64,000 nucleotides of DNA from a virus. Positions within the stretch are counted from its first letter, which is position 1. Every line of letters begins with the position of its first letter. A program made the translations under genes and the position numbers. The notes beneath the pieces are model-generated. The model saw only the letters and a program-made list of their open reading frames with translations. It was not told the origin of the DNA and did no database searches. The stretch lies in the IMG/VR virus record IMGVR_UViG_3300044713_000107, positions 5,930-69,929 of that record. One strand, written 5' to 3'. This document shows positions 10,701-22,738 of the stretch, in pieces.

Positions 10701-12122
10701 TCAGTCTCCCACTCGCTTGAGGACGTACACGCCGTCCTGCTGGAACACGACCCGGTAGCTGCTGCCCGGATGCTCCTGATCAGCCCACGCGGTGACGTTG
10801 CGGACCTGCCACCACTGCGTGTCCATAGCGATGTACTGAGGGCGCGGATCAAACGCGATCCCCCGCCCGCCCTGCCACACAAACGTCGCCGTGTCCTTCG
10901 CAGCCAGGGCGGACAACTGCCCCGGGTCAGCCGCGACGGTCACACCAGGCGGGATCACGCGGTTGGCGGCCAGGAGCGCGGCGGTGTGCGGGCCATGAGG
11001 ATACGTTCCTGAATTGAGGAGATCAGAGAGACCCTGCGGGAGACTGAACGCGGCCACGACCGCCGCAGCGACCAGAACGCCAGGGGCCTGACGCGCGTAG
11101 GAGCGGGCCCACGGGCGCGGCGACATGATCAGACGCTGCCAGCCGTCGGCCGCGGCGAGGAACACGATCGGCATCAGCGGGGCCGAGTAGTGCCAGTACG
11201 TGTTCCAGTACTCGGGGTTCGACGATTCGAACCGCCACAGCAGTGTCGGCACGGCGAGGAGAAGCAGCGGTGAGCGCAGGCACATGAACCCGGTGATGCC
11301 GAGGACCCAACCCAACGTCTGCACCTTGATGGCGGGCCAGACGAGCGCGGCCAGCAGATGCCAGCCACCGCCAGGAAGTTCCGTGAAGTAGGCGTAGTGG
11401 TGGTGCGGGTTGAACATTGGGATCAACACGAACACCTCCGCGAGCGTCGCACCCACGCCAACAAGGGCGAGGAGCGACCCGAGGAGCCGGCGCCCATGCT
11501 GCCACGCCAGCAGCACGCCCAGGGCGGCCACTGTCAGGCCCAAGTCCTCCTTGACCAGCAGCAGCGGCAGCGACCACACCGCAGCCCGCTCCGGACGACC
11601 CAGCAGCAACTGACGGCCCACCACAGCCAGCACGGGGACAGCGAACGCGATCTCGTGGAACCCCGCAGCGACAGCCTGTGCCAACCCCCACGCCAGCCCG
11701 TATGCGACGGTCAGGCACGCGCCCCGGGAGCGGCCCAGGAGACGCACTGCGGTGTCGCCGACCACGCCGACTGAGCTGCCGAAGAGGACGGCCTGCGCGG
11801 TCACGAGCATCAAGGGCGACGGCCACACCCACCACACGGGCGCGAGTAGGGCAATGATCGGCGACCAGTGATCACCGAGCAGATTCATGCCCTTGATCGG
11901 ATCCCACGGCGCGCCATGCGTCGCCCAACCCTTCACGGCCTCCGTGAAGATGGCCGTGTCGTACGTGTAGTCGTCGCCGCGGACCGTCCGGCACACCGCG
12001 AGGATGACCCAGGCTGCGGTGAATGCGAACGCGAGCATGACTGGCGTCGACGGGCGATGCGGGAGGCGCGCCTTGAGCGGGTGCAGGGCGATGGGTCTGG
12101 CAGGGTCACTAACGGAAGTCAC
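10701..12122 (-). CDS. DUF2079-family polytopic membrane protein (putative GT-C glycosyltransferase)
   Basis: YDTAIF, LLGDHWSPI, FHEIAFAVP, LLVKED, HYSAPL motifs; many TM helices. Confidence 0.82.
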   Translation of the reverse strand: MTSVSDPARPIALHPLKARLPHRPSTPVMLAFAFTAAWVILAVCRTVRGDDYTYDTAIFTEAVKGWATHGAPWDPIKGMNLLGDHWSPIIALLAPVWWVWPSPLMLVTAQAVLFGSSVGVVGDTAVRLLGRSRGACLTVAYGLAWGLAQAVAAGFHEIAFAVPVLAVVGRQLLLGRPERAAVWSLPLLLVKEDLGLTVAALGVLLAWQHGRRLLGSLLALVGVGATLAEVFVLIPMFNPHHHYAYFTELPGGGWHLLAALVWPAIKVQTLGWVLGITGFMCLRSPLLLLAVPTLLWRFESSNPEYWNTYWHYSAPLMPIVFLAAADGWQRLIMSPRPWARSYARQAPGVLVAAAVVAAFSLPQGLSDLLNSGTYPHGPHTAALLAANRVIPPGVTVAADPGQLSALAAKDTATFVWQGGRGIAFDPRPQYIAMDTQWWQVRNVTAWADQEHPGSSYRVVFQQDGVYVLKRVGD

Positions 12123-12189
12123 AATTCCCCCTGATTGCTTTCACGTTCCGTTTAATCAAGGTAGACGGCAGCACCGACGAACGAGCGGG

Positions 12190-12771
12190 TTACTGCCAGG
12201 GCGCGGGGCCGGTCCGGCTGGCCCAAGCGGCGAGGGCGTGTTCGTCGAGGAGCCGTAGCCCGACCCGCTTACCGAACGAGGCAGCGTCCTGCGTGAACGA
12301 CGACGTGGTCACGACCGCCGCCAACTGCGCGCCGTGGATGTCGCGGTAGGTCCCGTTCACGGCCTGCAAAGCGGGGGACCGGACGGGGTTGCCGCGGGCG
12401 TACCGCTTCGCCTGGATCAGGATCCGGCGCCCGTCCGGGGCAGTCGCGAGGACGTCAGCGGCGAGGTCACCGCCTCCGCCGACACGCTCGACGTTGCGGC
12501 ATCCGTCGCGGCGGCAGAGGTCGGCGAGGGCGTACTCGAACTGGGTGGGGTCCATCTGCTGAAAGCCGACGATGGCGCGGGCCCGGGTGAGCTTGTGGCG
12601 ACGGTGGTGGTGTCGGCGTCGCACGATCAGGGCGCTTGCCGCGAAGCAGCCGGCCGTGCACAGCACGACAGCGAGCGGGTGCTGCAGGATCGGCCACGCG
12701 ACCGCGAACAGGACCAGGAACGCGATCAGACCGGGGCCGGCGTGGTGCCGGTGCCTCCGTATCCGCCTCAC
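12190..12771 (-). CDS. Membrane-anchored Mrr-like restriction endonuclease
   Basis: QFEYALADL, GGGGDLAADV, ILIQAKRY, VVTTSSFT; two N-terminal hydrophobic helices. Confidence 0.88.
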   Translation of the reverse strand: MRRIRRHRHHAGPGLIAFLVLFAVAWPILQHPLAVVLCTAGCFAASALIVRRRHHHRRHKLTRARAIVGFQQMDPTQFEYALADLCRRDGCRNVERVGGGGDLAADVLATAPDGRRILIQAKRYARGNPVRSPALQAVNGTYRDIHGAQLAAVVTTSSFTQDAASFGKRVGLRLLDEHALAAWASRTGPAPWQ

Positions 12772-12779
12772 TGCCCTCT

Positions 12780-13223
12780 TCACCGCCTGCCCCCGATGCT
12801 GAAGCTGGAGTTGTCGCCGATCTTTACGTTGGAGATCCGGATGCCGCCCGCCACCTTGAGGGCGACGATCGCGACTGCGGCGAGCGCCACGGCGATGCTG
12901 ATCGCGACGACGGCGTGCTCGGCCATGCTCAACCCCTTGAAGAAGACCCACGATCCGCACTCGACGAGCGCCAGGCCGGCGCACCAGCAGAACCCCATGA
13001 AGCCGCATCCGTGCATGCGCGCGGGCAGCGGGTCGTAGGCGGGAAGCGGCTGGGGTTCGGGGTCGGGCTGGTAGTAGGCGATGCCGTTGGCGTCGTGGAG
13101 GACGCGGACACGGGCCGGGGCCGGGATGAGCGGCTGCGGCGTGTAGACGGCCGGGGTGCTGGTGGGCTGCGGGTCTTCGTACGCGGCCCAGTCGAAGACC
13201 TCCTCGCTGCGGTGGTGCTGCAT
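12780..13223 (-). CDS. Two-TM membrane protein (Spd-like candidate)
   Basis: Overlaps traB stop; two C-terminal hydrophobic helices. Confidence 0.6.
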   Translation of the reverse strand: MQHHRSEEVFDWAAYEDPQPTSTPAVYTPQPLIPAPARVRVLHDANGIAYYQPDPEPQPLPAYDPLPARMHGCGFMGFCWCAGLALVECGSWVFFKGLSMAEHAVVAISIAVALAAVAIVALKVAGGIRISNVKIGDNSSFSIGGRR

Positions 13224-15370
13224 CACTGCTCCTGGATGTGGTCGGTGTGGATGTAGTTGGTGCGCTCCCCGCCCGGCTGCACGATCTTCGGCTCGGCCTT
13301 CAGCCACGTGGTGACGGTCTGCCGGGACGGCGCCTTCGCGTTCGGGAACACCGCGCGGAAGGTGTCGAGGATGCCCTCGGGGTTGATGCCTTCCGGGCCG
13401 GAGGAGCGGACGATGCCGTAGACCTGGGGCCAGCGGTCGTCGCTGCTGATGCCGGGGGTGGGCGAGTTCGGACTGGCTGCGGGCGCGGGGGTGTCGTCAG
13501 TGGGGGGCGTCCAGACGCCACCGGCGCCTTCGACGATGTCGCGGAACTGGCGCTCCAGGTCGGCGTCACGGCTGGCGTTCTCGTCCATCGTCTGGTGCAA
13601 GTCCCGCTTCGCCGCATCCGCCTGGTCGATCACAGACTGCGCCTCGGGAGCCAGCGGCCCGGCCTCCGGCTTGCCCCAGTCGGCGGTGACGCTACGGCGG
13701 CGCTCGGGCCGATCCCCGACGATGCTCGTCAGGCCTTCCTCAACTGGGAACGGCGCGGAGCCGAGGCCGAAGAGGTGGTCCGTGTTCTCCCACCGCTTCT
13801 CGTAGGCGTCGCCTGCGGCTTTGCGGGACAGGTCGTCAAGGTCGGGGTGGCGGTCGCTGGTGGCCTTCACGATGTCGGCGATCTGGTTCGGCAGCATCCG
13901 GTACGCCTTGAACGGCCGCGCGGGCTCGTCCAGGATCTTCACGAAGCCGCACCCGGGGTAGGGGGCGTCGTCGGTGCTGATCCGGTCGGACCAGCCGAAC
14001 AGGTACGACATCTCCCGCTCGTCGGACTTCATGCCGATCTTCAGGCCGGACTGGGCCAGCAACTGCGGCTCGCTGATCACATCCTGCGTGGCGCGCAGCG
14101 CGGTGATGAGCGCGTTCACGGCAACGGCGCGGGCGAGCTCGACGACCTGGATGAGGGTGTCGCCGGTCTCCTTCAGGATCTCGTTCTTGCGGGCCTTCGG
14201 GGAGAAGATCTCCGCGATCTCATCGCCGACGATCATGATGCCGGGGACTGCGGCGCACACCGGCAGCTTGTCGTCGTTCGCCTCCAACTCCAGGTGCTTG
14301 TAACCCGGCTTGCGGGCCTTCGCGATCCGCAGCGCGGCCTTCGCCATCGCCAACGCCTTCGCCGGAGTGTCCGCAACCCAGTCGATCGGCGGCTTACCCG
14401 GGCGCCCGGCCTTCTCCCACGCGTGCAGCCACGCCAGCGCGAGACCACCGCCGTTGAGGTCGATCACCCACGTGATGTTGTCGGTCATGCGGACCAGGCC
14501 CGCGACCTCCACGTTCGACAGGTTCGTCTTCCCGGAGCCCTTACGTCCGGCCATGAGCGTCGACAGCTGCCGCAGTGACGGAGCAACGCGCGCACCGTCC
14601 CGGTACACGCCCATCGGCAGGCCGTCGTTCAAAGACAGCGGCGAGTAGTCCGCCGGGTAGGGCTCATCCCCGGCGAGCCGGTTCACGGTCGCCACGTTGA
14701 TCAGCACAGCACCGCGGTGCGCACCCGGGCCGACCTCAACCCCGCAGCCCTCGGGCAGCTTCGCGTCGGCGGCGAGGCCGTCCTCGAACGCCTTGAAGTC
14801 ACGCCACTTCGTGCCGTTGGAGCACTCCCCATCGAGGGTGAACCCGCCGCCGGACTCCCACTGCTCAACGCCGACGATCTGCACGGTCGCACTGGTGCAC
14901 ACCCGGGTCAGACGCTCGGTCCACTCGTCGGCGACCGCGCGCCGCTTGGCGTCCATGCTGGCCGCACGCTCAATCGCCTCGAAGCGGGCCCGTTCGTCGG
15001 CCTTCACCTCCTCGTGGTGGCGTGCGCCCTCGATCGCGGCACCGAGACCGATGCCGCCTGCGATCAGCGCGCCAATCGCCTTGCCCGTCCAGGGACCTTC
15101 AACGGTCGCCCACGAGCACCAGCCGCCGACACCCAGCCACGTGGCGGCACGCATGATCAGGGCTGAGCGGGGGATCCGCTTCTTCCGTCCGGCATACATG
15201 CTGCCGACCAGTCCGGCGCCAGCAGCACCGGCGAGCCAGCCGGGGCCGAGGTGGGCAAGGTGGTGATGGGCGAGTTCGTAGTCGGCCCAGGCAAGCGTGA
15301 GGCTCGTCCAGGTGGCGTTGATGGGGCCGGCGACGGGGCCGTGTCCGGCGTCCCAATCGATGTGCACCAC
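13223..15370 (-). CDS. traB: TraB-like FtsK/SpoIIIE conjugative DNA translocase
   Basis: N-terminal TM helices, Walker A GRKGSGKT, Walker B IVGDE, ATQ and arginine-finger GCGF region, C-terminal winged-helix-like segment. Confidence 0.88.
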   Translation of the reverse strand: MVHIDWDAGHGPVAGPINATWTSLTLAWADYELAHHHLAHLGPGWLAGAAGAGLVGSMYAGRKKRIPRSALIMRAATWLGVGGWCSWATVEGPWTGKAIGALIAGGIGLGAAIEGARHHEEVKADERARFEAIERAASMDAKRRAVADEWTERLTRVCTSATVQIVGVEQWESGGGFTLDGECSNGTKWRDFKAFEDGLAADAKLPEGCGVEVGPGAHRGAVLINVATVNRLAGDEPYPADYSPLSLNDGLPMGVYRDGARVAPSLRQLSTLMAGRKGSGKTNLSNVEVAGLVRMTDNITWVIDLNGGGLALAWLHAWEKAGRPGKPPIDWVADTPAKALAMAKAALRIAKARKPGYKHLELEANDDKLPVCAAVPGIMIVGDEIAEIFSPKARKNEILKETGDTLIQVVELARAVAVNALITALRATQDVISEPQLLAQSGLKIGMKSDEREMSYLFGWSDRISTDDAPYPGCGFVKILDEPARPFKAYRMLPNQIADIVKATSDRHPDLDDLSRKAAGDAYEKRWENTDHLFGLGSAPFPVEEGLTSIVGDRPERRRSVTADWGKPEAGPLAPEAQSVIDQADAAKRDLHQTMDENASRDADLERQFRDIVEGAGGVWTPPTDDTPAPAASPNSPTPGISSDDRWPQVYGIVRSSGPEGINPEGILDTFRAVFPNAKAPSRQTVTTWLKAEPKIVQPGGERTNYIHTDHIQEQ

Positions 15371-15409
15371 GGCTGTGCAGTCCTTTCAGGAGGTGAGGGT
15401 GAGCTGGGG

Positions 15410-16822
15410 TCAGGACAGGTTGGTCGAGACGTCCCACATGCGCTCGCCAGCGATGCCCTTGCGCGGGTTCTCCAGGCGGGCGAGGTCGACCTGGTGGAGG
15501 CTCTTGAACGCGGGCTGCAGCTCGGCGGCGAGCTCGGAGGCCTTCAGCTGGAGACCGTGGATCTGCTTCATCAGGTCGACGATCTGCGGGTCGAGGGGGT
15601 GCTGGGCGTCGGCCTTGTCGACGGTGACCCTCATGGCCTCGGCAACGAGCTCCAGGCCCTCCTGGAGTCCGGCGAAGTCGGCGCCGACCTGGAGCATGCC
15701 GGTGGGTTCGTAGGCGGCTGCGGCGCGGGCCATTTCCATGGCGGGGCCGGTGAAGTGGTGGCCGGGCATGAGGGTTCCTCCGTTGGCGGTTCGGGTGATC
15801 TGGTTGGTGGGCTTGCGGACGACGGACGAGATGGTGGGTTCGGGCTTGGCCGGGTCGGTGGTCTTGTTCTTGCGGTTGGCGCGGTGCTGCTTCCATGCGG
15901 CCCAGGCTTTGGCGAGGCCCTTCTTGATGGACCAGTGGCGCAGCGTGCCCCACACGCCGGTGCGGATGGCGCGGAGGGCGTCGGCGGTGAACCCGCGGGA
16001 CTTCCGTCCGGCTTTCTTCGCGGCAGCCCACGACTTGGTGCGCAGCGGCTTGCTGGTCTTCCACGCCTTCGAGGCACCGGCACCGGCGAGGCGACCGGCA
16101 CCCGCGGCGGCGCGCCCGACGTGACCAGCCGTGGTCTTCGCGGCACGGCTGGCGGCGGACGGGCTCGTCTTCGAGGACTTCTGGGAGCGGTTCGAGTTGC
16201 TGCCGTTGGAGCCGGCGGAGCTGCCTCCATCGCGGCGGTTCCTGGTTCGCTGCGAACCAGGACCGCTAGCCGTGCTTCCGGTTCCGCTTCCGTGCGAACC
16301 AGCGCCCGCAGGCGAGCCGGAACCAGACCGCGAACCACCGCCGCTGGAACCTGCGGAACCCGTTGAGGTACGCCACGGCGAACCAGCCGCCGAGGTTCGC
16401 GAACCACCCGACCCGGAACCACGCGAACCCCAGCTCGAACCCGTGCCGGAACCGCCCCACGAACCGCCGCGTGAACCACCGGAACCGAACCCGCCGGAAC
16501 CGAGCGAGGACCGGCGCCGAACCTGACGGCGCCGGCGAACCACAGCCGCCACCGCCCCCAACGCAACCACCCCGCCAGCCGCGGCCAGCGCGGGCAGACC
16601 ACCCGCCTCCGCCGCAGCCGTCAGGCCCATCGCGGTCGCGTTGCCGGTCGCAGCGAGCGCCGGCCCGGCGGGGATGCCGCGCTTCTTCGCGGGCTTCTCC
16701 TTGGCCTCCTTCGGCTCCGCAGCCTGCTGCCCGGCGGGTACAGCCCACCCGGCGGTGAGAGTCGGCGCGGGGATCGTGATGGTGGCCGGCTCCGGGGCGG
16801 GCGCGACCTGAGTGTCCGCCAC
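15410..16822 (-). CDS. TraA-like transfer accessory protein (TM, Gly/Ser linker, helical C-terminus)
   Basis: RBS AGGGAGG; directly upstream of traB; C-terminal RMWDVSTN motif recalled from actinomycete plasmid tra operons. Confidence 0.6.
   Translation of the reverse strand: MADTQVAPAPEPATITIPAPTLTAGWAVPAGQQAAEPKEAKEKPAKKRGIPAGPALAATGNATAMGLTAAAEAGGLPALAAAGGVVALGAVAAVVRRRRQVRRRSSLGSGGFGSGGSRGGSWGGSGTGSSWGSRGSGSGGSRTSAAGSPWRTSTGSAGSSGGGSRSGSGSPAGAGSHGSGTGSTASGPGSQRTRNRRDGGSSAGSNGSNSNRSQKSSKTSPSAASRAAKTTAGHVGRAAAGAGRLAGAGASKAWKTSKPLRTKSWAAAKKAGRKSRGFTADALRAIRTGVWGTLRHWSIKKGLAKAWAAWKQHRANRKNKTTDPAKPEPTISSVVRKPTNQITRTANGGTLMPGHHFTGPAMEMARAAAAYEPTGMLQVGADFAGLQEGLELVAEAMRVTVDKADAQHPLDPQIVDLMKQIHGLQLKASELAAELQPAFKSLHQVDLARLENPRKGIAGERMWDVSTNLS
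16250..16501. repeat. Polar GAACC/CGGAACC repeat cluster 1
   Basis: About 17 GAACC, including CGGAACC at 16318, 16354, 16414, 16447, 16480, 16495, all in one orientation. Confidence 0.85.
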
Positions 16823-16836
16823 AGCGGGCCTCCCTT

Positions 16837-16935
16837 GGTGTCGTCGTCGGTGTCGTCGTCAAGCGGGATGGGGTGTCATGGGCGCAGGTGGAGGGGGTGA
16901 TCTAGGTGGTGTCGTCGGGCGACGACGACACCACC
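16837..16935. repeat. Intergenic GGTGTCGTCGTC direct repeats plus 13-bp hairpin
   Basis: 12-mer at 16837 and 16849, 10-nt partial at 16908, inverted copy 16921-16932; hairpin 16905-16935. Confidence 0.8.
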
Positions 16936-16939
16936 ACCA

Positions 16940-17830
16940 TCAGTTGGGCGGGCTCTGCTCGTTGGCCTCAGACCAGGCGGTGCGGGCCTCGACGAGCCGG
17001 TTGTAGGAGGTGGTCTTGGACCATCCGGTCTCGTCCATGACGAACTTGAGCTTCACCGTGTCGAAGCCGTGCTCGTCGATCAGGTCGAGGATCTGCCGGA
17101 CCTGCTCGGTGACAGGCGGTATGGCCGGCTGCTGTCCCGAGTTGGCGGCCGGCGCGAGCGCAGGGCGGGCAGCGGCGGCGTTCGGCCTGGTTCGCTTGGG
17201 CTGGTTCCGGACCAGGCTCGGGCCAGTAGCCGGAACCTGCTTCAGGGTGGGCTGCTGAACCGGGTTCGGAACCGTCGACGGAACCTGCGGTGCTGCCGGG
17301 TTCGGAACCTGGGCGGTCGTCTGGCTCACGGGGTTCGGAACCTGGTTCGCCGGGGTTCCAGCGGGCTGGTTCGGAACCTGCGCGGTGGGGTTCGCCGGAA
17401 CCTGAACCTGTGCCGTCACCGCAGGGTTCGGAACCGTCTCCGCGAGCGCGGTTCGGGATTCCGCTTCGGGGTTCGCATGGACTACCGTCTCGGCGAGCGC
17501 GTGGACTCGCCAGATCGTCAACGGAACCAGGATCGACACGAACGCGACGAGCGTGACGGACACCTGAACCTGTCCGGCATCGAGGAGACGGGCGGCGATC
17601 TGAGCGCACGACATGATCGCGAGAGCGAACGCCAAATCCGGGCGACGCCCAGCACGAACCGCAGCCACGACGTACGCGTCGATCGCGAGAGGAAGCGCCG
17701 GAGCAACCCACGACGGGGCGCCGATGATCCGGGCCAGCTGCCACTCGGAGACTGCCGTCCACACGACGCCGGCTGCGACCGACAGGCGGACGAGCCAGAC
17801 AACGGCCGTGTCCCTGGCTCGTTCGCTCAT
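16940..17830 (-). CDS. SpdA/DUF2637-like membrane protein with QVPNP repeats and C-terminal HTH
   Basis: Four TM helices, ALPLAIDAYVVAA motif, C-terminal VMDETGWSKTTSYNRL. Confidence 0.7.
   Translation of the reverse strand: MSERARDTAVVWLVRLSVAAGVVWTAVSEWQLARIIGAPSWVAPALPLAIDAYVVAAVRAGRRPDLAFALAIMSCAQIAARLLDAGQVQVSVTLVAFVSILVPLTIWRVHALAETVVHANPEAESRTALAETVPNPAVTAQVQVPANPTAQVPNQPAGTPANQVPNPVSQTTAQVPNPAAPQVPSTVPNPVQQPTLKQVPATGPSLVRNQPKRTRPNAAAARPALAPAANSGQQPAIPPVTEQVRQILDLIDEHGFDTVKLKFVMDETGWSKTTSYNRLVEARTAWSEANEQSPPN
17231..17435. repeat. Polar CGGAACC repeat cluster 2
   Basis: CGGAACC at 17231, 17267, 17279, 17303, 17336, 17372, 17396, 17429; five occur as GGTTCGGAACC. Confidence 0.85.
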
Positions 17831-17901
17831 GATGGTTCTCCCTCTCGGGTAGGTGCCGGGCAGCGGGGGGACTGCCCGGCGGACTGTGGTGGGCTGGCGT
17901 G

Positions 17902-18153
17902 TCAGGAGGTGGTGTCGTCGGAGCTGGGCCCGGTCTCGATGGCGGCGGCGATGCGGGCGTATGCGGCGGCGAGGGCGGTGTGGGCGTCGACGGTCCGCAT
18001 CTGGTGGGCCTGTTCGCGCTCGGGGTAGCTGCGGCGGAGGAGCTTCGCGGCTTCGTGGGCGTGTTCGACGGCTTTGGTGAGGAGCTCCTCGCGCTTGGGT
18101 TGGTGGTCGCCGAGGTTGATGCGGACTCGGCTGGTGGGCTTGTTGTCGGCCAT
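17902..18153 (-). CDS. Small helical hypothetical protein
   Basis: RBS GAAGGA; inside tra operon. Confidence 0.6.
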   Translation of the reverse strand: MADNKPTSRVRINLGDHQPKREELLTKAVEHAHEAAKLLRRSYPEREQAHQMRTVDAHTALAAAYARIAAAIETGPSSDDTTS

Positions 18154-18285
18154 GCGGGTCCTTCCGTCGGGGTGGGTGGCTTGGGGTCCCGGGCGCGGGC
18201 TTTGCGGTGGGGGAGCCGTGTGGACTCGCGCCCGGGGGTTGGCGGTCGGGTGGTGCGGCCGGTTTCATCCGCACGGCCCGACCAG

Positions 18286-18516
18286 TCAGTTGGCCTGTTG
18301 TGTCAGGCGTTGGTGTGCTTCCTGCGGGTCGAGGAGGACGTCGCGTGCGAGCGTGCCGCGTGAGGGTCCGACGATGCCGTGGGCGGCGAGCTGGTCCATG
18401 AGCCGTTCGGCGGTGGAGAACCGGATGCGGAGCTTGCGCTGGAGCATGTTGGTGGAGCCGAAGCGGGTGGTGGTGATGATCTCGGCGGCCTGGAACAGGA
18501 GGTCGTCGGCGGTCAT
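18286..18516 (-). CDS. Stand-alone FtsK gamma (winged-helix) domain protein
   Basis: AAEIITTTRFGSTNMLQRKLRIRFSTAERLMDQLAAHGIVGPSRGTLARDVL matches FtsK gamma consensus; ATG overlaps upstream stop. Confidence 0.88.
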   Translation of the reverse strand: MTADDLLFQAAEIITTTRFGSTNMLQRKLRIRFSTAERLMDQLAAHGIVGPSRGTLARDVLLDPQEAHQRLTQQAN

Positions 18517-18953
18517 CAGAACGCGGCCCAGGCGTGCGGCTGCCCAAGGACGATGCGGTCGTAGGTGCGCTCGGTGCGCTCGTGGGAACCCTCGGCTTCG
18601 ACGGCGGCGAGCTGGGCACGAACCTGCTGGCGGGTCATCGAGACGGGGCCGTGTGGGGCGGTCGGGATGGAGTCCCAGTCGAGGTCGTGGCTCAGCGGGC
18701 GGGCGGTGAGCGGCCGGGCGGGCGGAGCCGGGCGCGGGCCGAGACCGGAGGGCTTGCGCGGGCCAGGGACGCGGGGGATGGCCGGCTTGTCGTCGTCGGT
18801 GTCCCAGCCCTGCGGGGCTGCTGTGCTGCTGATGGTGCTGGCGATACTCTCCATGTGTCTGCCCATTCGCTTCGGAGTGGTTGGGCGGCTTGGCCCGGTC
18901 GGTGTTCGCGCACTGGTCGGGCCGTCTTGCTGAGAACCGGGTGCGGTTCCCAT
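18516..18953 (-). CDS. Pro-rich hypothetical protein, first gene of tra operon (probably leaderless)
   Basis: ATG 18953 lies 7 nt after a TAGGGT -10; alternative ATG at 18854. Confidence 0.5.
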   Translation of the reverse strand: MGTAPGSQQDGPTSARTPTGPSRPTTPKRMGRHMESIASTISSTAAPQGWDTDDDKPAIPRVPGPRKPSGLGPRPAPPARPLTARPLSHDLDWDSIPTAPHGPVSMTRQQVRAQLAAVEAEGSHERTERTYDRIVLGQPHAWAAF

Positions 18954-19807: not shown

Positions 19808-19970
19808 GGGGGTGACCTCCTGTCGGTGTACAGGCGTGCAGCGGTAGCGTGGATGACTGGCCGTCACCACGTCGTTGCTGCTTGGGATGTCTCAATCCCA
19901 CCGCGAGCCGGGCCGCAGCACGATGAGGGCAGGGACCATCTGGAATGCAGGTAGCCGACTGGGGGTTGGC

Positions 19971-20603
19971 GTGGATGTCGTTGGCAGGTGGTCGGCCAGG
20001 CGCGCGGTGGCGTTGCAGTTGGCGATGCGGGCCACGAATGAGGGTTTCGCCGGGGTGCTCGGTATCAGCACCAGGACTGTCGCCGCGTGGCATGCGGCCC
20101 CGGAGGTGACGCCTCGGGAGGAGTTCCAGCAGATCCTCGACACCGCGTTCGAGAAGGCCCCGGAGCAGGTGCGTGCCCGCTACGAACAGCTGGTCAAGAC
20201 CCCGGCGGCGGATGTGCAGGCGCTCAGGGTTGCGGTCGCGGTGATCACGCATGAGGGCCGGGTACTGCTGGTGTGCCGCCGCGGCGACGACGCGATCAGC
20301 TGGCAGTTCCCGTCCGGGATCGTAAAGCCAGGCAGCAAGCCCGAGGCCGCTGCGGTGCGTGAGGCGCTGGCGGAGACCGGCGTCCACGTCGCCGTCCAGC
20401 AGCACCTCGGCGAACGCCTCCACCCCGTGACCGGGGTTCAGTGCCACTACCTGCAGTGCAGTTGGCTCGCAGGCGACGCTGCGAATGCGGACCCGGATGA
20501 GAACGTGGCAGTGATGTGGGTCGCGACCGCCGATGTGTCGCGGTTCATCCCAGCGGACAGGATCTACCCGCCCGTCATGGCGGTTCTGGAGGGGAAGCAG
20601 TGA
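19971..20603 (+). CDS. HTH-Nudix fusion with degenerate Nudix box
   Basis: N-terminal FAGVLGISTRTVAAW HTH; Nudix-like WQFPSGIVKPGSKPEAAAVREALAETG. Confidence 0.82.
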   Translation: MDVVGRWSARRAVALQLAMRATNEGFAGVLGISTRTVAAWHAAPEVTPREEFQQILDTAFEKAPEQVRARYEQLVKTPAADVQALRVAVAVITHEGRVLLVCRRGDDAISWQFPSGIVKPGSKPEAAAVREALAETGVHVAVQQHLGERLHPVTGVQCHYLQCSWLAGDAANADPDENVAVMWVATADVSRFIPADRIYPPVMAVLEGKQ

Positions 20604-20992
20604 GCGAGCAGGGGATCAGCGCGGCGATCATCGTCCACGACGGGCGGGTGCTCATGGCCCGGCGCCGCGTCACGGAGGGCGAGCTGTCGTGGCAGTTCCC
20701 CGCGGGCGGCATCGAGGCGGGGGAGTCGGCGGAGCAGGCCGCAGTCCGCGAGACCGTCGAGGAGACCGGCCTCACCGTCAGCGCGGTGAAGGTGCTCGGG
20801 GAGCGCGTCCACCCGAAGACCGGCCGGCACATGTCCTACGTCGCCTGCACAGTCGAGGGCGGCGCGGCAACGGTCGCGGACGACGAGGAACTTGCTGAGG
20901 TCCGCTGGGCGACACTCGCCGACCTCCCGCAGCTCGTGCCGTACGGCTTGTTCCCGGTTGTGCAGCAGTACCTCGACGCCGAGCTCGCGTAG
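20600..20992 (+). CDS. Nudix hydrolase (pSAM2 Pif-like candidate)
   Basis: Intact box GGIEAGESAEQAAVRETVEETGL; 130 aa. Confidence 0.9.
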   Translation: MSEQGISAAIIVHDGRVLMARRRVTEGELSWQFPAGGIEAGESAEQAAVRETVEETGLTVSAVKVLGERVHPKTGRHMSYVACTVEGGAATVADDEELAEVRWATLADLPQLVPYGLFPVVQQYLDAELA

Positions 20993-21588: not shown

Positions 21589-22581
21589 TCAACCTCCAAC
21601 TATCAGGGACAGGCCCGCGGGGCGCTCCCGCAAGGCTTCGATGCGACCGACGTAGTCGGCCACGGACTTGGCCAGCTGGCGCAGGTCTTCCATCTGGCGC
21701 TCGTCGGCGCCGGCCGCGACCTGTTCCGGGGTGAACATCCCGATCAGGCCGAAGGAACGGGCGAGCTCCTTCTGGAAGTTGTGCTGCCACTGCTTGCGAC
21801 GGATCTCCTCGGCGGCGCCGGAGGATTCGAGGTAGTCGCGGACAGGGGCGACCAGGGCGTCGGCTTCGGCCTGCTTGACCTTCTTGAAGGCCGGGTCGAC
21901 CTTGCCGGTGCGGTCCATCACGGCCTGGGCCTCGCGAGCGGCTTCGCGCACCGGCTCGGGTGCCTCCAGGTCGCGGGCGGCCTCGACGACATGCCGGGCC
22001 TTCTCCAGGGTCCGGCCGGACATGCCAGTTGCCTTGGCGATCTGATCCCGAGTCTTCAGCGACGGCTTCGGTGCTTCGGCGGCAACGACGCTCGGTGGAA
22101 AATTTCCACCGAGCGTCGACTTGGCTTCTGGCTCGACGGCGACGAGTACGGGTGCTTCTGGATCGGCGGCTAGGCGCGCCTTTGCGGCTTGGGGGCCGCC
22201 GGCGCGCTGGCCCGCCAGGCGGCGTTCGGCTGCGCGCTGCTCCTCAATGCCGCGGATCCGCTCGGCGTGCTCAACCGCCTCGGTGGGCGTGAATGCCTCG
22301 CGCTCGGTGTTCTCTTCGCCCTCGGCGAGCAGGGCCTCCAGTTCGTCGGCGAGAGACCCGGCGACGTGGGCGTCGATCGTGTCGCGGCCGAGTAGCCGGT
22401 GGGCTTCGATGCGCCGACCGCCAGCGACGAGGGCGTAGCCGCCGCCGTCGGGCCGGACGACGATCGGCTGGAGAAGCCCTCGCTCTTTGATGGATTTTGC
22501 AAGGGAATCGATGTTGCGCATCTCCTGGCGCGCCCTGTCGCCAATGGTGATGCGGTCGAGGGATATGGCGTTGACGATCAA
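21589..22581 (-). CDS. ParB N-terminal domain protein with HTH
   Basis: SIKERGLLQPIVV, VAGGRRIEA, EENTERE; TTG start with GGAGG. Confidence 0.85.
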   Translation of the reverse strand: MIVNAISLDRITIGDRARQEMRNIDSLAKSIKERGLLQPIVVRPDGGGYALVAGGRRIEAHRLLGRDTIDAHVAGSLADELEALLAEGEENTEREAFTPTEAVEHAERIRGIEEQRAAERRLAGQRAGGPQAAKARLAADPEAPVLVAVEPEAKSTLGGNFPPSVVAAEAPKPSLKTRDQIAKATGMSGRTLEKARHVVEAARDLEAPEPVREAAREAQAVMDRTGKVDPAFKKVKQAEADALVAPVRDYLESSGAAEEIRRKQWQHNFQKELARSFGLIGMFTPEQVAAGADERQMEDLRQLAKSVADYVGRIEALRERPAGLSLIVGG

Positions 22582-22738
22582 GAGCGGACCTCCGCAGACG
22601 TCTGACCGATACTCACTATGAGTGAACGACTGGGGGATGCGCAAAGAGCCCGAGGCTGACGTGCTATGGAGTCCCGAATGGTGTGACTTTCCGGGCGCGC
22701 TGACGGCCCTTCAAGTCACACGCAGTTGCGACGCTCGC

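What the first reader, a model, noticed from the sequence alone, without database searches (positions are those of the whole stretch)
16250..17435. Same polar 7-mer written into two adjacent genes in different reading frames: candidate clt/TraB recognition locus
Seen: CGGAACC occurs 6 times in the TraA-like gene (read as GGT-TCC, Gly-Ser) and 8 times in the SpdA-like gene (five read as CAG-GTT-CC, Gln-Val-Pro, the others GTT-CC after a different codon), all in one orientation. It forces GGT and GTT codons, which are disfavoured in high-GC hosts. Known: TraB binds directional 8-bp repeats (TRS) in clt via its C-terminal winged helix. Inference: selection is on the DNA motif, and the low-complexity protein linkers are a by-product.
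Basis: partly seen in the sequence, partly recalled or inferred. Interest (0 to 1): 0.78.

Follow-up and report, generated by a model that had tools for sequence, protein, structure and literature searches.

The report
DNA docking words written into linker codons
A tailed Streptomyces-type phage carries, next to a plasmid-style DNA pump gene, two dense arrays of a short DNA word hidden in the codons of two floppy protein linkers; the word is selected as DNA rather than as peptide, so it is probably a protein docking site for moving the DNA between cells.

Summary
Observation confirmed. CGGAACC occurs 6 and 8 times on the + strand at the stated places (31 in the window against 14.5 expected). 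It is the commonest long form of a 5-bp core, GGTTC/GAACC. Forty-seven cores, in both orientations, form two ~350-bp arrays in the linker codons of two membrane-protein genes upstream of a TraB/FtsK-type translocase, in a tailed phage.

Selection is on the DNA. Recoding the same peptides with the contig's codon usage gives 0.3 copies per gene, against 6 and 9 observed. The core is read in all three codon phases and both strands. Six relatives keep 35-50 cores with different linker peptides. Across 47 related loci the two linkers share an element-specific word (19/47 against 6% for mismatched pairs).

Polarity is not conserved. The word class tracks TraB's recognition helix poorly (ARI 0.56) and tracks the C-terminal three-helix domain of the "SpdA-like" membrane protein well (ARI 0.9; the two are genetically linked, which confounds this).

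Best reading: a clt-like docking array, more likely read by that membrane protein than by TraB. This is a new variant of a known kind. The scan has noted similar arrays before on other DNA.

The parts
13223..15370 (-). TraB/FtsK-type membrane dsDNA translocase gene (P0003, 715 aa; Walker A GRKGSGKT)
   Evidence: PHROG 31069 FtsK/SpoIIIE-like, E 3.5e-89. AlphaFold2 model has mean pLDDT 82.5. Foldseek matches FtsK motor domain 2iut at E 2e-14 and TcpA 6o1x at E 3e-14. Pfam and NCBIfam give no hit at E 0.01.
13241..13438 (-). Codes the C-terminal three-helix plus wing domain of TraB (residues ~645-710; putative recognition helix PSRQTVTTWLKA)
   Evidence: Helices 647-656, 664-674 and 683-692 and strand 705-707, with pLDDT about 90-95. 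Weak Pfam HTH hit DUF4817, E 0.0033.
15410..16822 (-).
   Evidence: Translation. GTG start preceded by AAGGGAGG. C-terminal domain is conserved next to traB in most of the ~60 related loci fetched. 37% identity to phage Galactica gp98, E 1e-26. No Pfam, NCBIfam or PHROG family.
16189..16541 (.). Array A: 24 GGTTC/GAACC cores (19 GAACC and 5 GGTTC on the + strand), including 6 CGGAACC, in the linker codons of gene A
   Evidence: Codon null: 6 GGTTCCG observed against 0.32 expected; 20 GGTTC against 2.7 expected; none of 2000 resamples reaches either.
16940..17830 (-).
   Evidence: Translation and start with GGGAG ribosome-binding site. The 559-aa ORF 16940-18619 is spurious in its first 263 residues. 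Homologues include DUF2637 proteins.
17189..17528 (.). Array B: 23 GGTTC/GAACC cores (12 GGTTC and 11 GAACC on the + strand), including 9 CGGAACC and 5 GGTTCGGAACC, in the linker codons of gene B
   Evidence: Codon null: 9 observed against 0.27 expected; none of 2000 resamples reaches it.
16961..17125 (-). Codes the C-terminal three-helix (HTH-like) domain of gene B, the favoured candidate reader of the arrays
   Evidence: AlphaFold2 helices 41-55, 62-69 and 73-92 of the 97-residue construct, pLDDT 85-92. Foldseek gives only weak hits, mostly HTH domains, E >= 0.4. Clusters of this domain match word classes with ARI 0.91-0.95.
18286..18516 (-). Free-standing 76-aa FtsK gamma-domain ORF in the same leftward gene string
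   Evidence: Pfam FtsK_gamma PF09397, E 8e-18. Start at MTADD. The same small ORF stands upstream of gene B in L065/L066. A gamma-like tail is fused to TraB in L031, L045, L046 and L051.

Best explanation
The 7-mer is the commonest extended form of a 5-bp word, GGTTC/GAACC. About 47 copies, on both strands, are packed into two ~350-bp arrays 650 bp apart.

The arrays coincide with the codons for the disordered linkers of two consecutive membrane-protein genes. These lie directly upstream of a TraB/FtsK-type dsDNA translocase gene, in a temperate Streptomyces-type tailed phage.

Shown: the word is maintained as DNA, not as peptide. The same design recurs in many related phages, plasmids and integrated elements, with a different word in each element and the word shared by both linkers.

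Inferred: the arrays are a cis-acting docking platform for a DNA-binding protein of the transfer module, functionally a clt-like site.

It would coat both arrays and hold the element's DNA at the membrane beside the TraB pore. This resembles SpdA2 binding sps inside its own gene. TraB's own winged helix is the less likely reader.
For: (1) Clustering. The window holds 31 CGGAACC against 14.5 expected. GAACC reaches 19 and 13 per kb in the two genes against about 1 per kb elsewhere.

(2) Codon null. With the peptides fixed and the contig's codon usage, GGTTCCG is expected 0.32 and 0.27 times; 6 and 9 are observed. None of 2000 resamples, and none of 2000 within-gene synonymous shuffles, reaches the observed counts.

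(3) Reading frames. The core is read in all three codon phases and both strands, as Gly-Ser, Gly-Phe, x-Val-Pro, x-Asn-Pro, Glu-Pro and x-Thr-x.

(4) Relatives. L004, L035, L064, L066 and L067 keep 35-50 cores in the same two linkers. Their linker peptides and orientation mix differ; for example, L004 uses Pro-Glu-Pro via CCGGAACC.

(5) Across 47 loci:
- The top hexamer of linker A is among the top three of linker B in 19 loci. The rate is 6.1% for mismatched pairs and 0/45 for a traB coding control.
- The top 7-mer of linker A is enriched in region B at p < 1e-3 in 16 loci, down to 2.5e-21.
- The second cluster of A's word lies 2.0-2.7 kb upstream of traB in most loci.
- At least 8 different words are seen.

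(6) No long tract is shared by the two linkers. The longest common substring is 11-19 nt, the same as controls, so gene conversion does not explain the shared word.

(7) The neighbour is an FtsK-type motor with a winged-helix tail.

(8) Reader. Word class matches clusters of gene B's C-terminal domain (ARI 0.95 and 0.91 at 55-60% identity). It matches TraB's recognition helix less well (ARI 0.56) and wHTH clusters worse still (<= 0.50). Word classes are polyphyletic on the TraB motor tree.

(9) Precedents. clt loci consist of element-specific 7-9-bp repeats bound by the Tra protein (PMC4447253; PMC3583192). SpdA2 binds a site inside its own coding region (PMC4170104).
Against: - No binding or transfer data exist for this element.
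- The association of word class with gene B's C-terminal domain is confounded by linkage. Array B lies in the same gene and array A is about 0.5 kb away. The clustering threshold was also chosen after looking at the data.
- The HTH nature of that domain rests on an AlphaFold2 model with only weak Foldseek matches (E >= 0.4) and no Pfam hit.
- About 47 sites is far more than the 4-9 repeats of described clt loci.
- In roughly a third of related loci no shared word was detected, so the design is not universal.
- The arrays fold somewhat better than shuffles as RNA (z -2.2 and -3.2), leaving room for a structural role.
Confidence: 0.55

Rival explanations
1. First reader's reading. The arrays are a classical clt made of polar TraB recognition sequences. 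They are read by helix 3 of TraB's own C-terminal winged helix, which loads the hexameric motor in a defined direction.
For: Published precedent: TraB of pSVH1 recognises repeated 8-bp motifs through helix alpha-3 of its wHTH, and clt repeats are plasmid-specific. P0003 has an FtsK-type motor and a confident three-helix plus wing tail. The 7-mer CGGAACC is 15:2 in one orientation in the window. At a coarse level the helix classes go with word families: HAATIGRW with CCGC[CT][AC]C, SRxx[VI]TxW with GGTTC in six loci, and TRQTITRW-type with CGGACC.
Against: The identical helix SRSAITDW occurs with GGTTC (L004), CGCCAG (L044) and CGAAGC (L047). HAATIGRW occurs with CGCYAC, CGCCCC and CGCCACG. Six different helices occur with CGCCACG. 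ARI is 0.56 or lower, against about 0.9 for gene B's domain. The core occurs on both strands in the window (32:18), and the orientation mix differs among close relatives, so polarity is not conserved.
Confidence: 0.2
2. The arrays serve another element-encoded or host DNA-binding protein and another function. Candidates are a partition centromere for the ParB-like protein, a target of the free-standing FtsK gamma protein, or operator-like sites of a tra regulator.
For: A ParB-like gene lies at 21589-22644. A gamma-domain ORF lies at 18286-18516 in the same gene string. L067 also has ParB_N upstream and L065/L066 also have the gamma ORF. Dense arrays of short words in mixed orientation resemble plasmid centromeres (own knowledge: ParR/parC, omega heptads).
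Against: The arrays always sit in the two genes next to traB, including in loci integrated in chromosomes. The gamma domain is present only in some relatives and is fused to TraB in others. There is no genome-wide strand skew of the word: outside the arrays 11 copies lie on + and 8 on -.
Confidence: 0.1
3. There is no DNA-level function. The linkers are low-complexity peptide repeats that grew by slippage, and the repeated codons are left over from recent duplication.
For: Five of the gene B copies share a longer unit, CAGGTTCCGAACCC, coding QVPNP. The commonest neighbour spacing is 12 bp, which is four codons. Some relatives have arrays in one linker only (L047, L044) that look like plain peptide repeats.
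Against: Tandem Repeats Finder finds no array. The same word occurs in two unrelated peptide contexts, three phases and both strands. Relatives change the peptide but keep the word. The within-element match of the two linkers (19/47 against 6%) has no explanation under slippage. No long tracts are shared.
Confidence: 0.08
4. The signal acts at RNA or single-strand level. The complementary words would give mRNA structure, or rare-codon runs would slow translation of the linkers after the membrane segments.
For: As RNA the linker segments fold better than shuffles: z -2.2 (4 of 200 shuffles as good) and z -3.2 (0 of 100). GGT and GTT are rare codons here.
Against: Any sequence full of a word and its complement folds better than its shuffles. 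In other elements the words use common codons, for example CGCCAC. The two arrays in the window are mostly co-oriented, so they cannot pair with each other.
Confidence: 0.05

Closest known systems
clt loci with Tra/TraB recognition repeats of Streptomyces conjugative plasmids (pSVH1 8-bp TRS; pJV1 nine 9-bp repeats; pWTY27 TGACACC/CCCGCCC; pIJ101)
   Same: Clusters of element-specific 5-9-bp words lie next to the gene of an FtsK-like membrane translocase that moves double-stranded DNA. In pWTY27, part of clt lies inside the tra coding region.
   Different: There are about 47 cores in two arrays instead of 4-9 repeats in 50-175 bp. The arrays lie upstream of traB, inside the linker codons of two other genes. 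Orientation is mixed. Binding and cis requirement are untested.
SpdA2 and its sps site of pIJ101 (Thoma et al. 2014, PMC4170104)
   Same: A transfer/spread-region protein binds a DNA site that lies inside its own coding sequence. SpdA was proposed as the interface between the DNA and the translocation apparatus.
   Different: sps is a 12-bp palindrome present in 1-3 copies and highly conserved between plasmids. Here the word is 5-7 bp, present in dozens of copies, element-specific, and also written into the next gene. Gene B (296 aa, membrane protein) has no demonstrated homology to the ~135-aa SpdA proteins.
FtsK gamma / KOPS and SpoIIIE / SRS
   Same: A winged-helix domain of an FtsK-type motor reads short DNA words. 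A gamma domain is encoded in the operon.
   Different: KOPS are polar and skewed over a whole replicon. Here the word is confined to two arrays, without genome-wide skew and with both orientations.
tra locus of the Streptomyces plasmid-phage pZL12 / phiZL12
   Same: A tailed phage or plasmid with the same gene trio: membrane protein with a helical C-terminus, large Gly/Ser-linker protein, and FtsK-like gene (28% identity to P0003). [quoted passage not shown]
   Different: No single dominant word was seen in the pZL12 linkers. Homology of gene A to gp72 is weak (E 8e-4). The primary paper was not available.
Plasmid centromere arrays (ParR/parC, omega-protein heptads) - from own knowledge
   Same: Many short repeats in direct and inverted orientation are coated by a small DNA-binding domain to make a handle for a motor.
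   Different: Those arrays are intergenic and linked to par genes. These are in coding linkers and linked to traB in every context examined.

Membership tests
clt locus with TraB recognition sequences | Cluster of short (7-9 bp) repeats close to the gene of the FtsK-like Tra protein | tested here: met
   Two arrays of 24 and 23 cores lie 0.8-2.2 kb upstream of the traB start.
clt locus with TraB recognition sequences | Repeat sequence is specific to the element and differs between related elements | tested here: met
   At least 8 word classes among 47 related loci.
clt locus with TraB recognition sequences | Neighbouring Tra protein is a membrane FtsK/SpoIIIE-like ATPase with a C-terminal winged helix | tested here: met
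   PHROG 31069, E 3.5e-89. Foldseek matches the FtsK motor at E 2e-14. Four N-terminal helices and a three-helix plus wing tail.
clt locus with TraB recognition sequences | Repeats are bound by the cognate TraB through the recognition helix of its wHTH | tested here: inconclusive
   Binding is not testable here. As a comparative proxy, identical helices go with different words and different helices with the same word. ARI is 0.56, against about 0.9 for gene B's domain.
clt locus with TraB recognition sequences | Repeats are direct (one orientation) | tested here: not met
   The 7-mer is 15:2 in the window, but the core is 32:18. Relatives have 20:22, 18:17 and 30:20.
clt locus with TraB recognition sequences | Required in cis for transfer or mobilisation | not testable with these tools
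   Needs mating assays.
SpdA2/sps-type autologous site | Binding sites lie inside the coding region of the binding protein's own gene | tested here: inconclusive
   Array B lies inside gene B, but binding by its product is only inferred from the comparative pattern.
SpdA2/sps-type autologous site | Protein carries a DNA-binding (HTH) domain | tested here: inconclusive
   The model shows a three-helix domain with pLDDT 85-92. Best Foldseek rows are TetR, Lrp, sigma-4 and Z-alpha HTH domains, but with E >= 0.4. No Pfam family.
SpdA2/sps-type autologous site | 12-bp palindrome conserved between plasmids | tested here: not met
   The word is 5-7 bp and element-specific. Palindromic pairs are a minority (5 GGTTCGGAACC among 50 cores).
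FtsK gamma / KOPS | Replicon-wide strand-skewed distribution of the word | tested here: not met
   Outside the arrays the 80.8-kb contig has 11 copies on + and 8 on -.
Partition centromere | Repeat array adjacent to and co-inherited with par genes | tested here: inconclusive
   A ParB-like gene lies 4 kb away, but the arrays follow traB in all loci. Presence of par genes in relatives was not surveyed.

The most novel reading that the evidence does not exclude
A general rule for a large family of TraB-carrying actinomycete phages, phage-plasmids and integrated elements. The cis site of the transfer module would be dual-coded in the linker codons of two membrane-protein genes and read by the HTH tail of one of those proteins. 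That protein would then form a membrane-tethered docking platform that hands double-stranded DNA to the TraB pore. Tailed phage genomes could thus spread cell-to-cell like conjugative plasmids, and the DNA word would dictate the sequence of the protein linkers.
Probability: 0.3. Interest if true: 0.8.

Novelty: new variant of a known kind. Interest (0 to 1): 0.62.

Why it matters
clt sites are known for only a handful of Streptomyces plasmids. A 2022 survey states that none is described even for the archetypal AICE pSAM2 (PMC9513070).

If these arrays are the cis site of this TraB family, three things follow:
- They give a sequence rule for finding transfer sites in many phages, plasmids and integrated elements.
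- They show a clear case of DNA-binding sites dictating the sequence of protein linkers, that is, dual coding.
- They make testable the idea that tailed phages of mycelial actinomycetes can also move as double-stranded DNA through a conjugation-type pump.

They also explain why gene callers mis-annotate these genes.

Tried and rejected
- Tandem Repeats Finder on 15400-18700 found only short weak rows and no array over the motif clusters.
- Pfam and NCBIfam on the three proteins gave nothing at E 0.01. Pfam at E 10 on gene B, its tail and gene A's C-terminus gave nothing useful.
- A PDB sequence search with P0003 and with a profile found nothing.
- The ARAGORN tRNA-His call at 16502-16576 inside gene A has no Rfam support at E <= 1 and is taken as a false positive.
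- Vogelmann 2011 and the pZL12 paper are not held. The pSVH1 TRS sequence is therefore cited from memory only and not used as evidence.
- Gene conversion between the two linkers is rejected. The longest shared substrings are 11-19 nt, the same as controls.
- Dimer-site architecture: palindromic pairs are a minority and have no consistent spacer.
- Helical phasing: the spacing mode of 12 bp cannot be separated from codon periodicity.
- Complex prediction of the TraB tail with gene B's tail returned no verdict; it is evidence neither for nor against.
- Foldseek on gene B's tail gave no match at E <= 0.001.
- The all-k-mer sharing statistic was dominated by base composition and was replaced by statistics on repeated k-mers.
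Full report
**1. What is there**

The window is part of a single 80,846-bp contig that the tools treat as a virus record. It encodes:
- a large terminase subunit (1246-2838);
- a DnaB-like helicase, an RNA ligase, a methyltransferase and a ParB-like protein.

The finding lies in a leftward gene string, listed here in order of transcription:
- a 76-aa free-standing FtsK gamma ORF (18286-18516; Pfam E 8e-18);
- a small ORF (17902-18153);
- gene B (16940-17830, 296 aa from an ATG with a GGGAG ribosome-binding site; the longer ORF to 18619 is spurious);
- gene A (15410-16822, 470 aa);
- a 715-aa gene (13223-15370, P0003);
- an Mrr-type endonuclease gene and a DUF2079 gene.

P0003 matches no Pfam or NCBIfam model. 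It does match PHROG 31069 'FtsK/SpoIIIE-like' (E 3.5e-89). Its AlphaFold2 model (pLDDT 82.5) superposes on FtsK motor domains and the TcpA coupling protein (E about 1e-14). It has four N-terminal helices and a confident C-terminal three-helix plus wing domain. By architecture it is a TraB-type translocase.

Its relatives are the 'FtsK-like DNA translocase' of Streptomyces phages Galactica, Hiyaa, Spocter and Keanu, the plasmid-phage ZL12, and proteins of Streptomyces, Frankia and Nocardiopsis plasmids.

**2. The observation**

The window has 31 copies against 14.5 +/- 3.6 expected.

Small corrections:
- Six rather than five copies in gene B are read CAG-GTT-CCG.
- Gene B has a ninth co-oriented copy at 17522.
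- There is one reverse copy in each gene.

More important, the unit is the 5-bp core GGTTC/GAACC. There are 24 cores at 16189-16541 and 23 at 17189-17528, on both strands (32 against 18 in gene sense). The two arrays are separated by 652 bp. The rest of the 13.8-kb neighbourhood has 41 cores in all. No long-period tandem repeat underlies them.

**3. Is it DNA or peptide?**

The peptides were held fixed and codons drawn from the contig's own usage (53 ORFs, 17,129 codons). Under that null, GGTTCCG is expected 0.32 times in gene A and 0.27 times in gene B. It is observed 6 and 9 times. None of 2000 resamples reaches the observed value. Neither does any of 2000 shuffles that keep each gene's own codon counts.

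GGT is 41% of Gly codons in gene A (14% in the contig). GTT is 39% of Val codons in gene B (8% in the contig).

The core is read in all three phases and both strands, as Gly-Ser, Gly-Phe, x-Val-Pro/Gln/Arg, x-Asn-Pro/Gln, Glu-Pro and x-Thr-x.

**4. Relatives with the same word**

About sixty loci encoding relatives of P0003 were fetched from GTDB genomes and IMG/VR. Three more came through homologues of gene B's C-terminal domain.

L004, L035, L064, L066 and L067 carry that domain. All have 35-50 GGTTC/GAACC cores in the same two linkers. Their linker peptides differ: L004 writes Pro-Glu-Pro with CCGGAACC where the window writes Gln-Val-Pro-Asn with CAGGTTCCGAAC. The ratio of the two orientations also differs. 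In L035 and L064-L067 even the membrane domain of gene B is of another type (DUF2637).

Homologues keep the DNA word and not the peptides.

**5. Relatives with other words**

In most loci the commonest non-trivial 7-mer of the 3.4 kb upstream of traB lies in two clusters, at about -2.5 to -1.8 kb and -1.3 to -0.8 kb. The word differs between elements:
- CGCCCCG, CCGCTAC, CGCCACC and CGCCACG;
- CCGGACC in the Hiyaa-like phages;
- CGGTACC and CCGGGCA, among others.

Tests that choose the word from linker A only:
- It is enriched in the gene B region at p < 1e-3 in 16 of 47 loci, down to 2.5e-21.
- The top hexamer of A is among the top three of B in 19 of 47 loci. The rate is 6.1% of 1982 mismatched pairs and 0 of 45 for a traB coding control. 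Eleven of 19 TraB similarity clusters contain such a locus.
- The densest 400-bp window of A's word lies upstream of A rather than anywhere else in 39 of 47 loci.
- Sharing of repeated 7-mers is 127 on the diagonal against 29 off it, while controls are nearly flat.

The two linkers share no tract longer than controls do (11-19 nt). Duplication or gene conversion therefore does not explain the shared word. In many elements the two arrays are inverted relative to each other. In the window they are mostly co-oriented.

**6. Who reads it?**

This cannot be settled without experiments, but the comparative pattern is informative.

The putative recognition helix of TraB corresponds to P0003 residues 681-692, PSRQTVTTWLKA.
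- It is identical (SRSAITDW) in L004 (GGTTC), L044 (CGCCAG) and L047 (CGAAGC).
- HAATIGRW occurs with CGCYAC, CGCCCC and CGCCACG.
- Six different helices occur with CGCCACG.

On a maximum-likelihood tree of the TraB motor domain the word classes are polyphyletic. GGTTC needs at least 2 changes and CGCCACG at least 3.

The adjusted Rand index between word class and TraB helix is 0.56, and at most 0.50 for wHTH clusters. For clusters of gene B's last 75 residues it is 0.95 and 0.91 at 55-60% identity.

That domain folds as three helices (pLDDT 85-92). Its best, though non-significant, structural neighbours are HTH domains.

Caveats: gene B's tail is physically linked to both arrays, and the clustering threshold was chosen post hoc. 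A complex prediction between the two tails returned no verdict (see Tried and rejected).

**7. Mechanism proposed**

Shown: two DNA-selected arrays of an element-specific word lie in the linker codons of the two genes upstream of a TraB-type motor, across many elements.

Inferred: they are docking sites for a DNA-binding protein of the transfer module, that is, a clt-like site.

Inferred, more weakly: the membrane-anchored gene B protein binds them with its C-terminal domain and holds the DNA at the membrane next to the TraB pore. This is comparable to SpdA2 binding sps inside its own gene, and to the proposal that SpdA connects the DNA substrate to the translocation apparatus.

The statement in PMC3583192 that pZL12 transfer needs the major tra gene plus two adjacent genes fits either a protein or a cis role for this trio.

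**8. Rivals**

- TraB's own winged helix as reader (0.2).
- Another reader or function, such as the ParB-like or gamma protein, or a regulator (0.1).
- Peptide repeats without DNA function (0.08).
- RNA structure or translational pausing (0.05; RNA folding z -2.2 and -3.2).

**9. Novelty**

Known from the literature:
- short element-specific repeats next to tra genes (clt);
- a site inside a spd gene (sps).

Not described in the papers I could read:
- dozens of copies written into the linker codons of two adjacent genes;
- the word shared by both linkers and changing from element to element;
- the arrangement in tailed phages as well as plasmids and integrated elements.

PMC9513070 notes that no clt is known even for pSAM2.

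Earlier notes of this scan describe similar arrays on other genomes, with the words CCGACAC, TGCCAG, GGTCCGG and ACCGCGNNTCC. They agree with this reading but are not independent evidence.

Verdict: observation confirmed; interpretation partly supported; new variant of a known kind.

Noticed in passing
window 16502-16576 (-): ARAGORN calls a tRNA-His inside gene A, directly beside the last CGGAACC. Rfam finds no tRNA there at E <= 1. It is probably a false positive, possibly helped by the T-loop-like GGTTCG words.
   Followed up: partly
L031, L045, L046, L051 (traB 3' ends); window 18286-18516; L065 5644-5874; L066 705-935: The FtsK gamma domain is a mobile accessory of this TraB family. It is fused after the winged helix of TraB in four relatives and is a free-standing 76-aa ORF upstream of gene B in the window and in L065/L066.
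   Followed up: partly
L003 4218-5546 (Hiyaa gp100); L066 2385-3245; L001 3668-4513; L064 7089-7895: Gene A homologues are mis-annotated in public records and by gene callers. They are called on the opposite strand, truncated, or left as an unannotated gap, presumably because of the dual-coded low-complexity linker.
   Followed up: partly
window 16940-18619 (-): The longest ORF over gene B (559 aa) is spurious in its first 263 residues. That part is a Pro/Arg-rich out-of-frame reading across the gamma ORF and the small ORF. The real start is ATG 17830.
   Followed up: yes
window 10701-13008 (-); L064, L066, L067 downstream of traB: An Mrr_cat restriction-endonuclease-like gene and a DUF2079 membrane-protein gene follow traB in conserved order in the window and in three relatives. 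A role in the transfer module or in exclusion is possible.
   Followed up: no
window 19875-20992 (+) and 21589-22644 (-): There are two tandem NUDIX genes, the first with a weak HTH_23 hit, and a ParB-like gene upstream of the tra string. L067 also has ParB_N upstream.
   Followed up: no
L051, L031, L045 linkers: In the CGCCACG class the half-sites sometimes abut to give the perfect 12-bp palindrome CGTGGCGCCACG. In the window the analogous pair is GGTTCGGAACC (5 copies). Such pairs are a minority of sites.
   Followed up: partly
L002 (Galactica), L003 (Hiyaa), L052-L054, L057: The Hiyaa-like phages use CCGGACC / GACCCCGGA. From memory this resembles the pSVH1 TraB recognition sequence; the paper was not available to check.
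   Followed up: no
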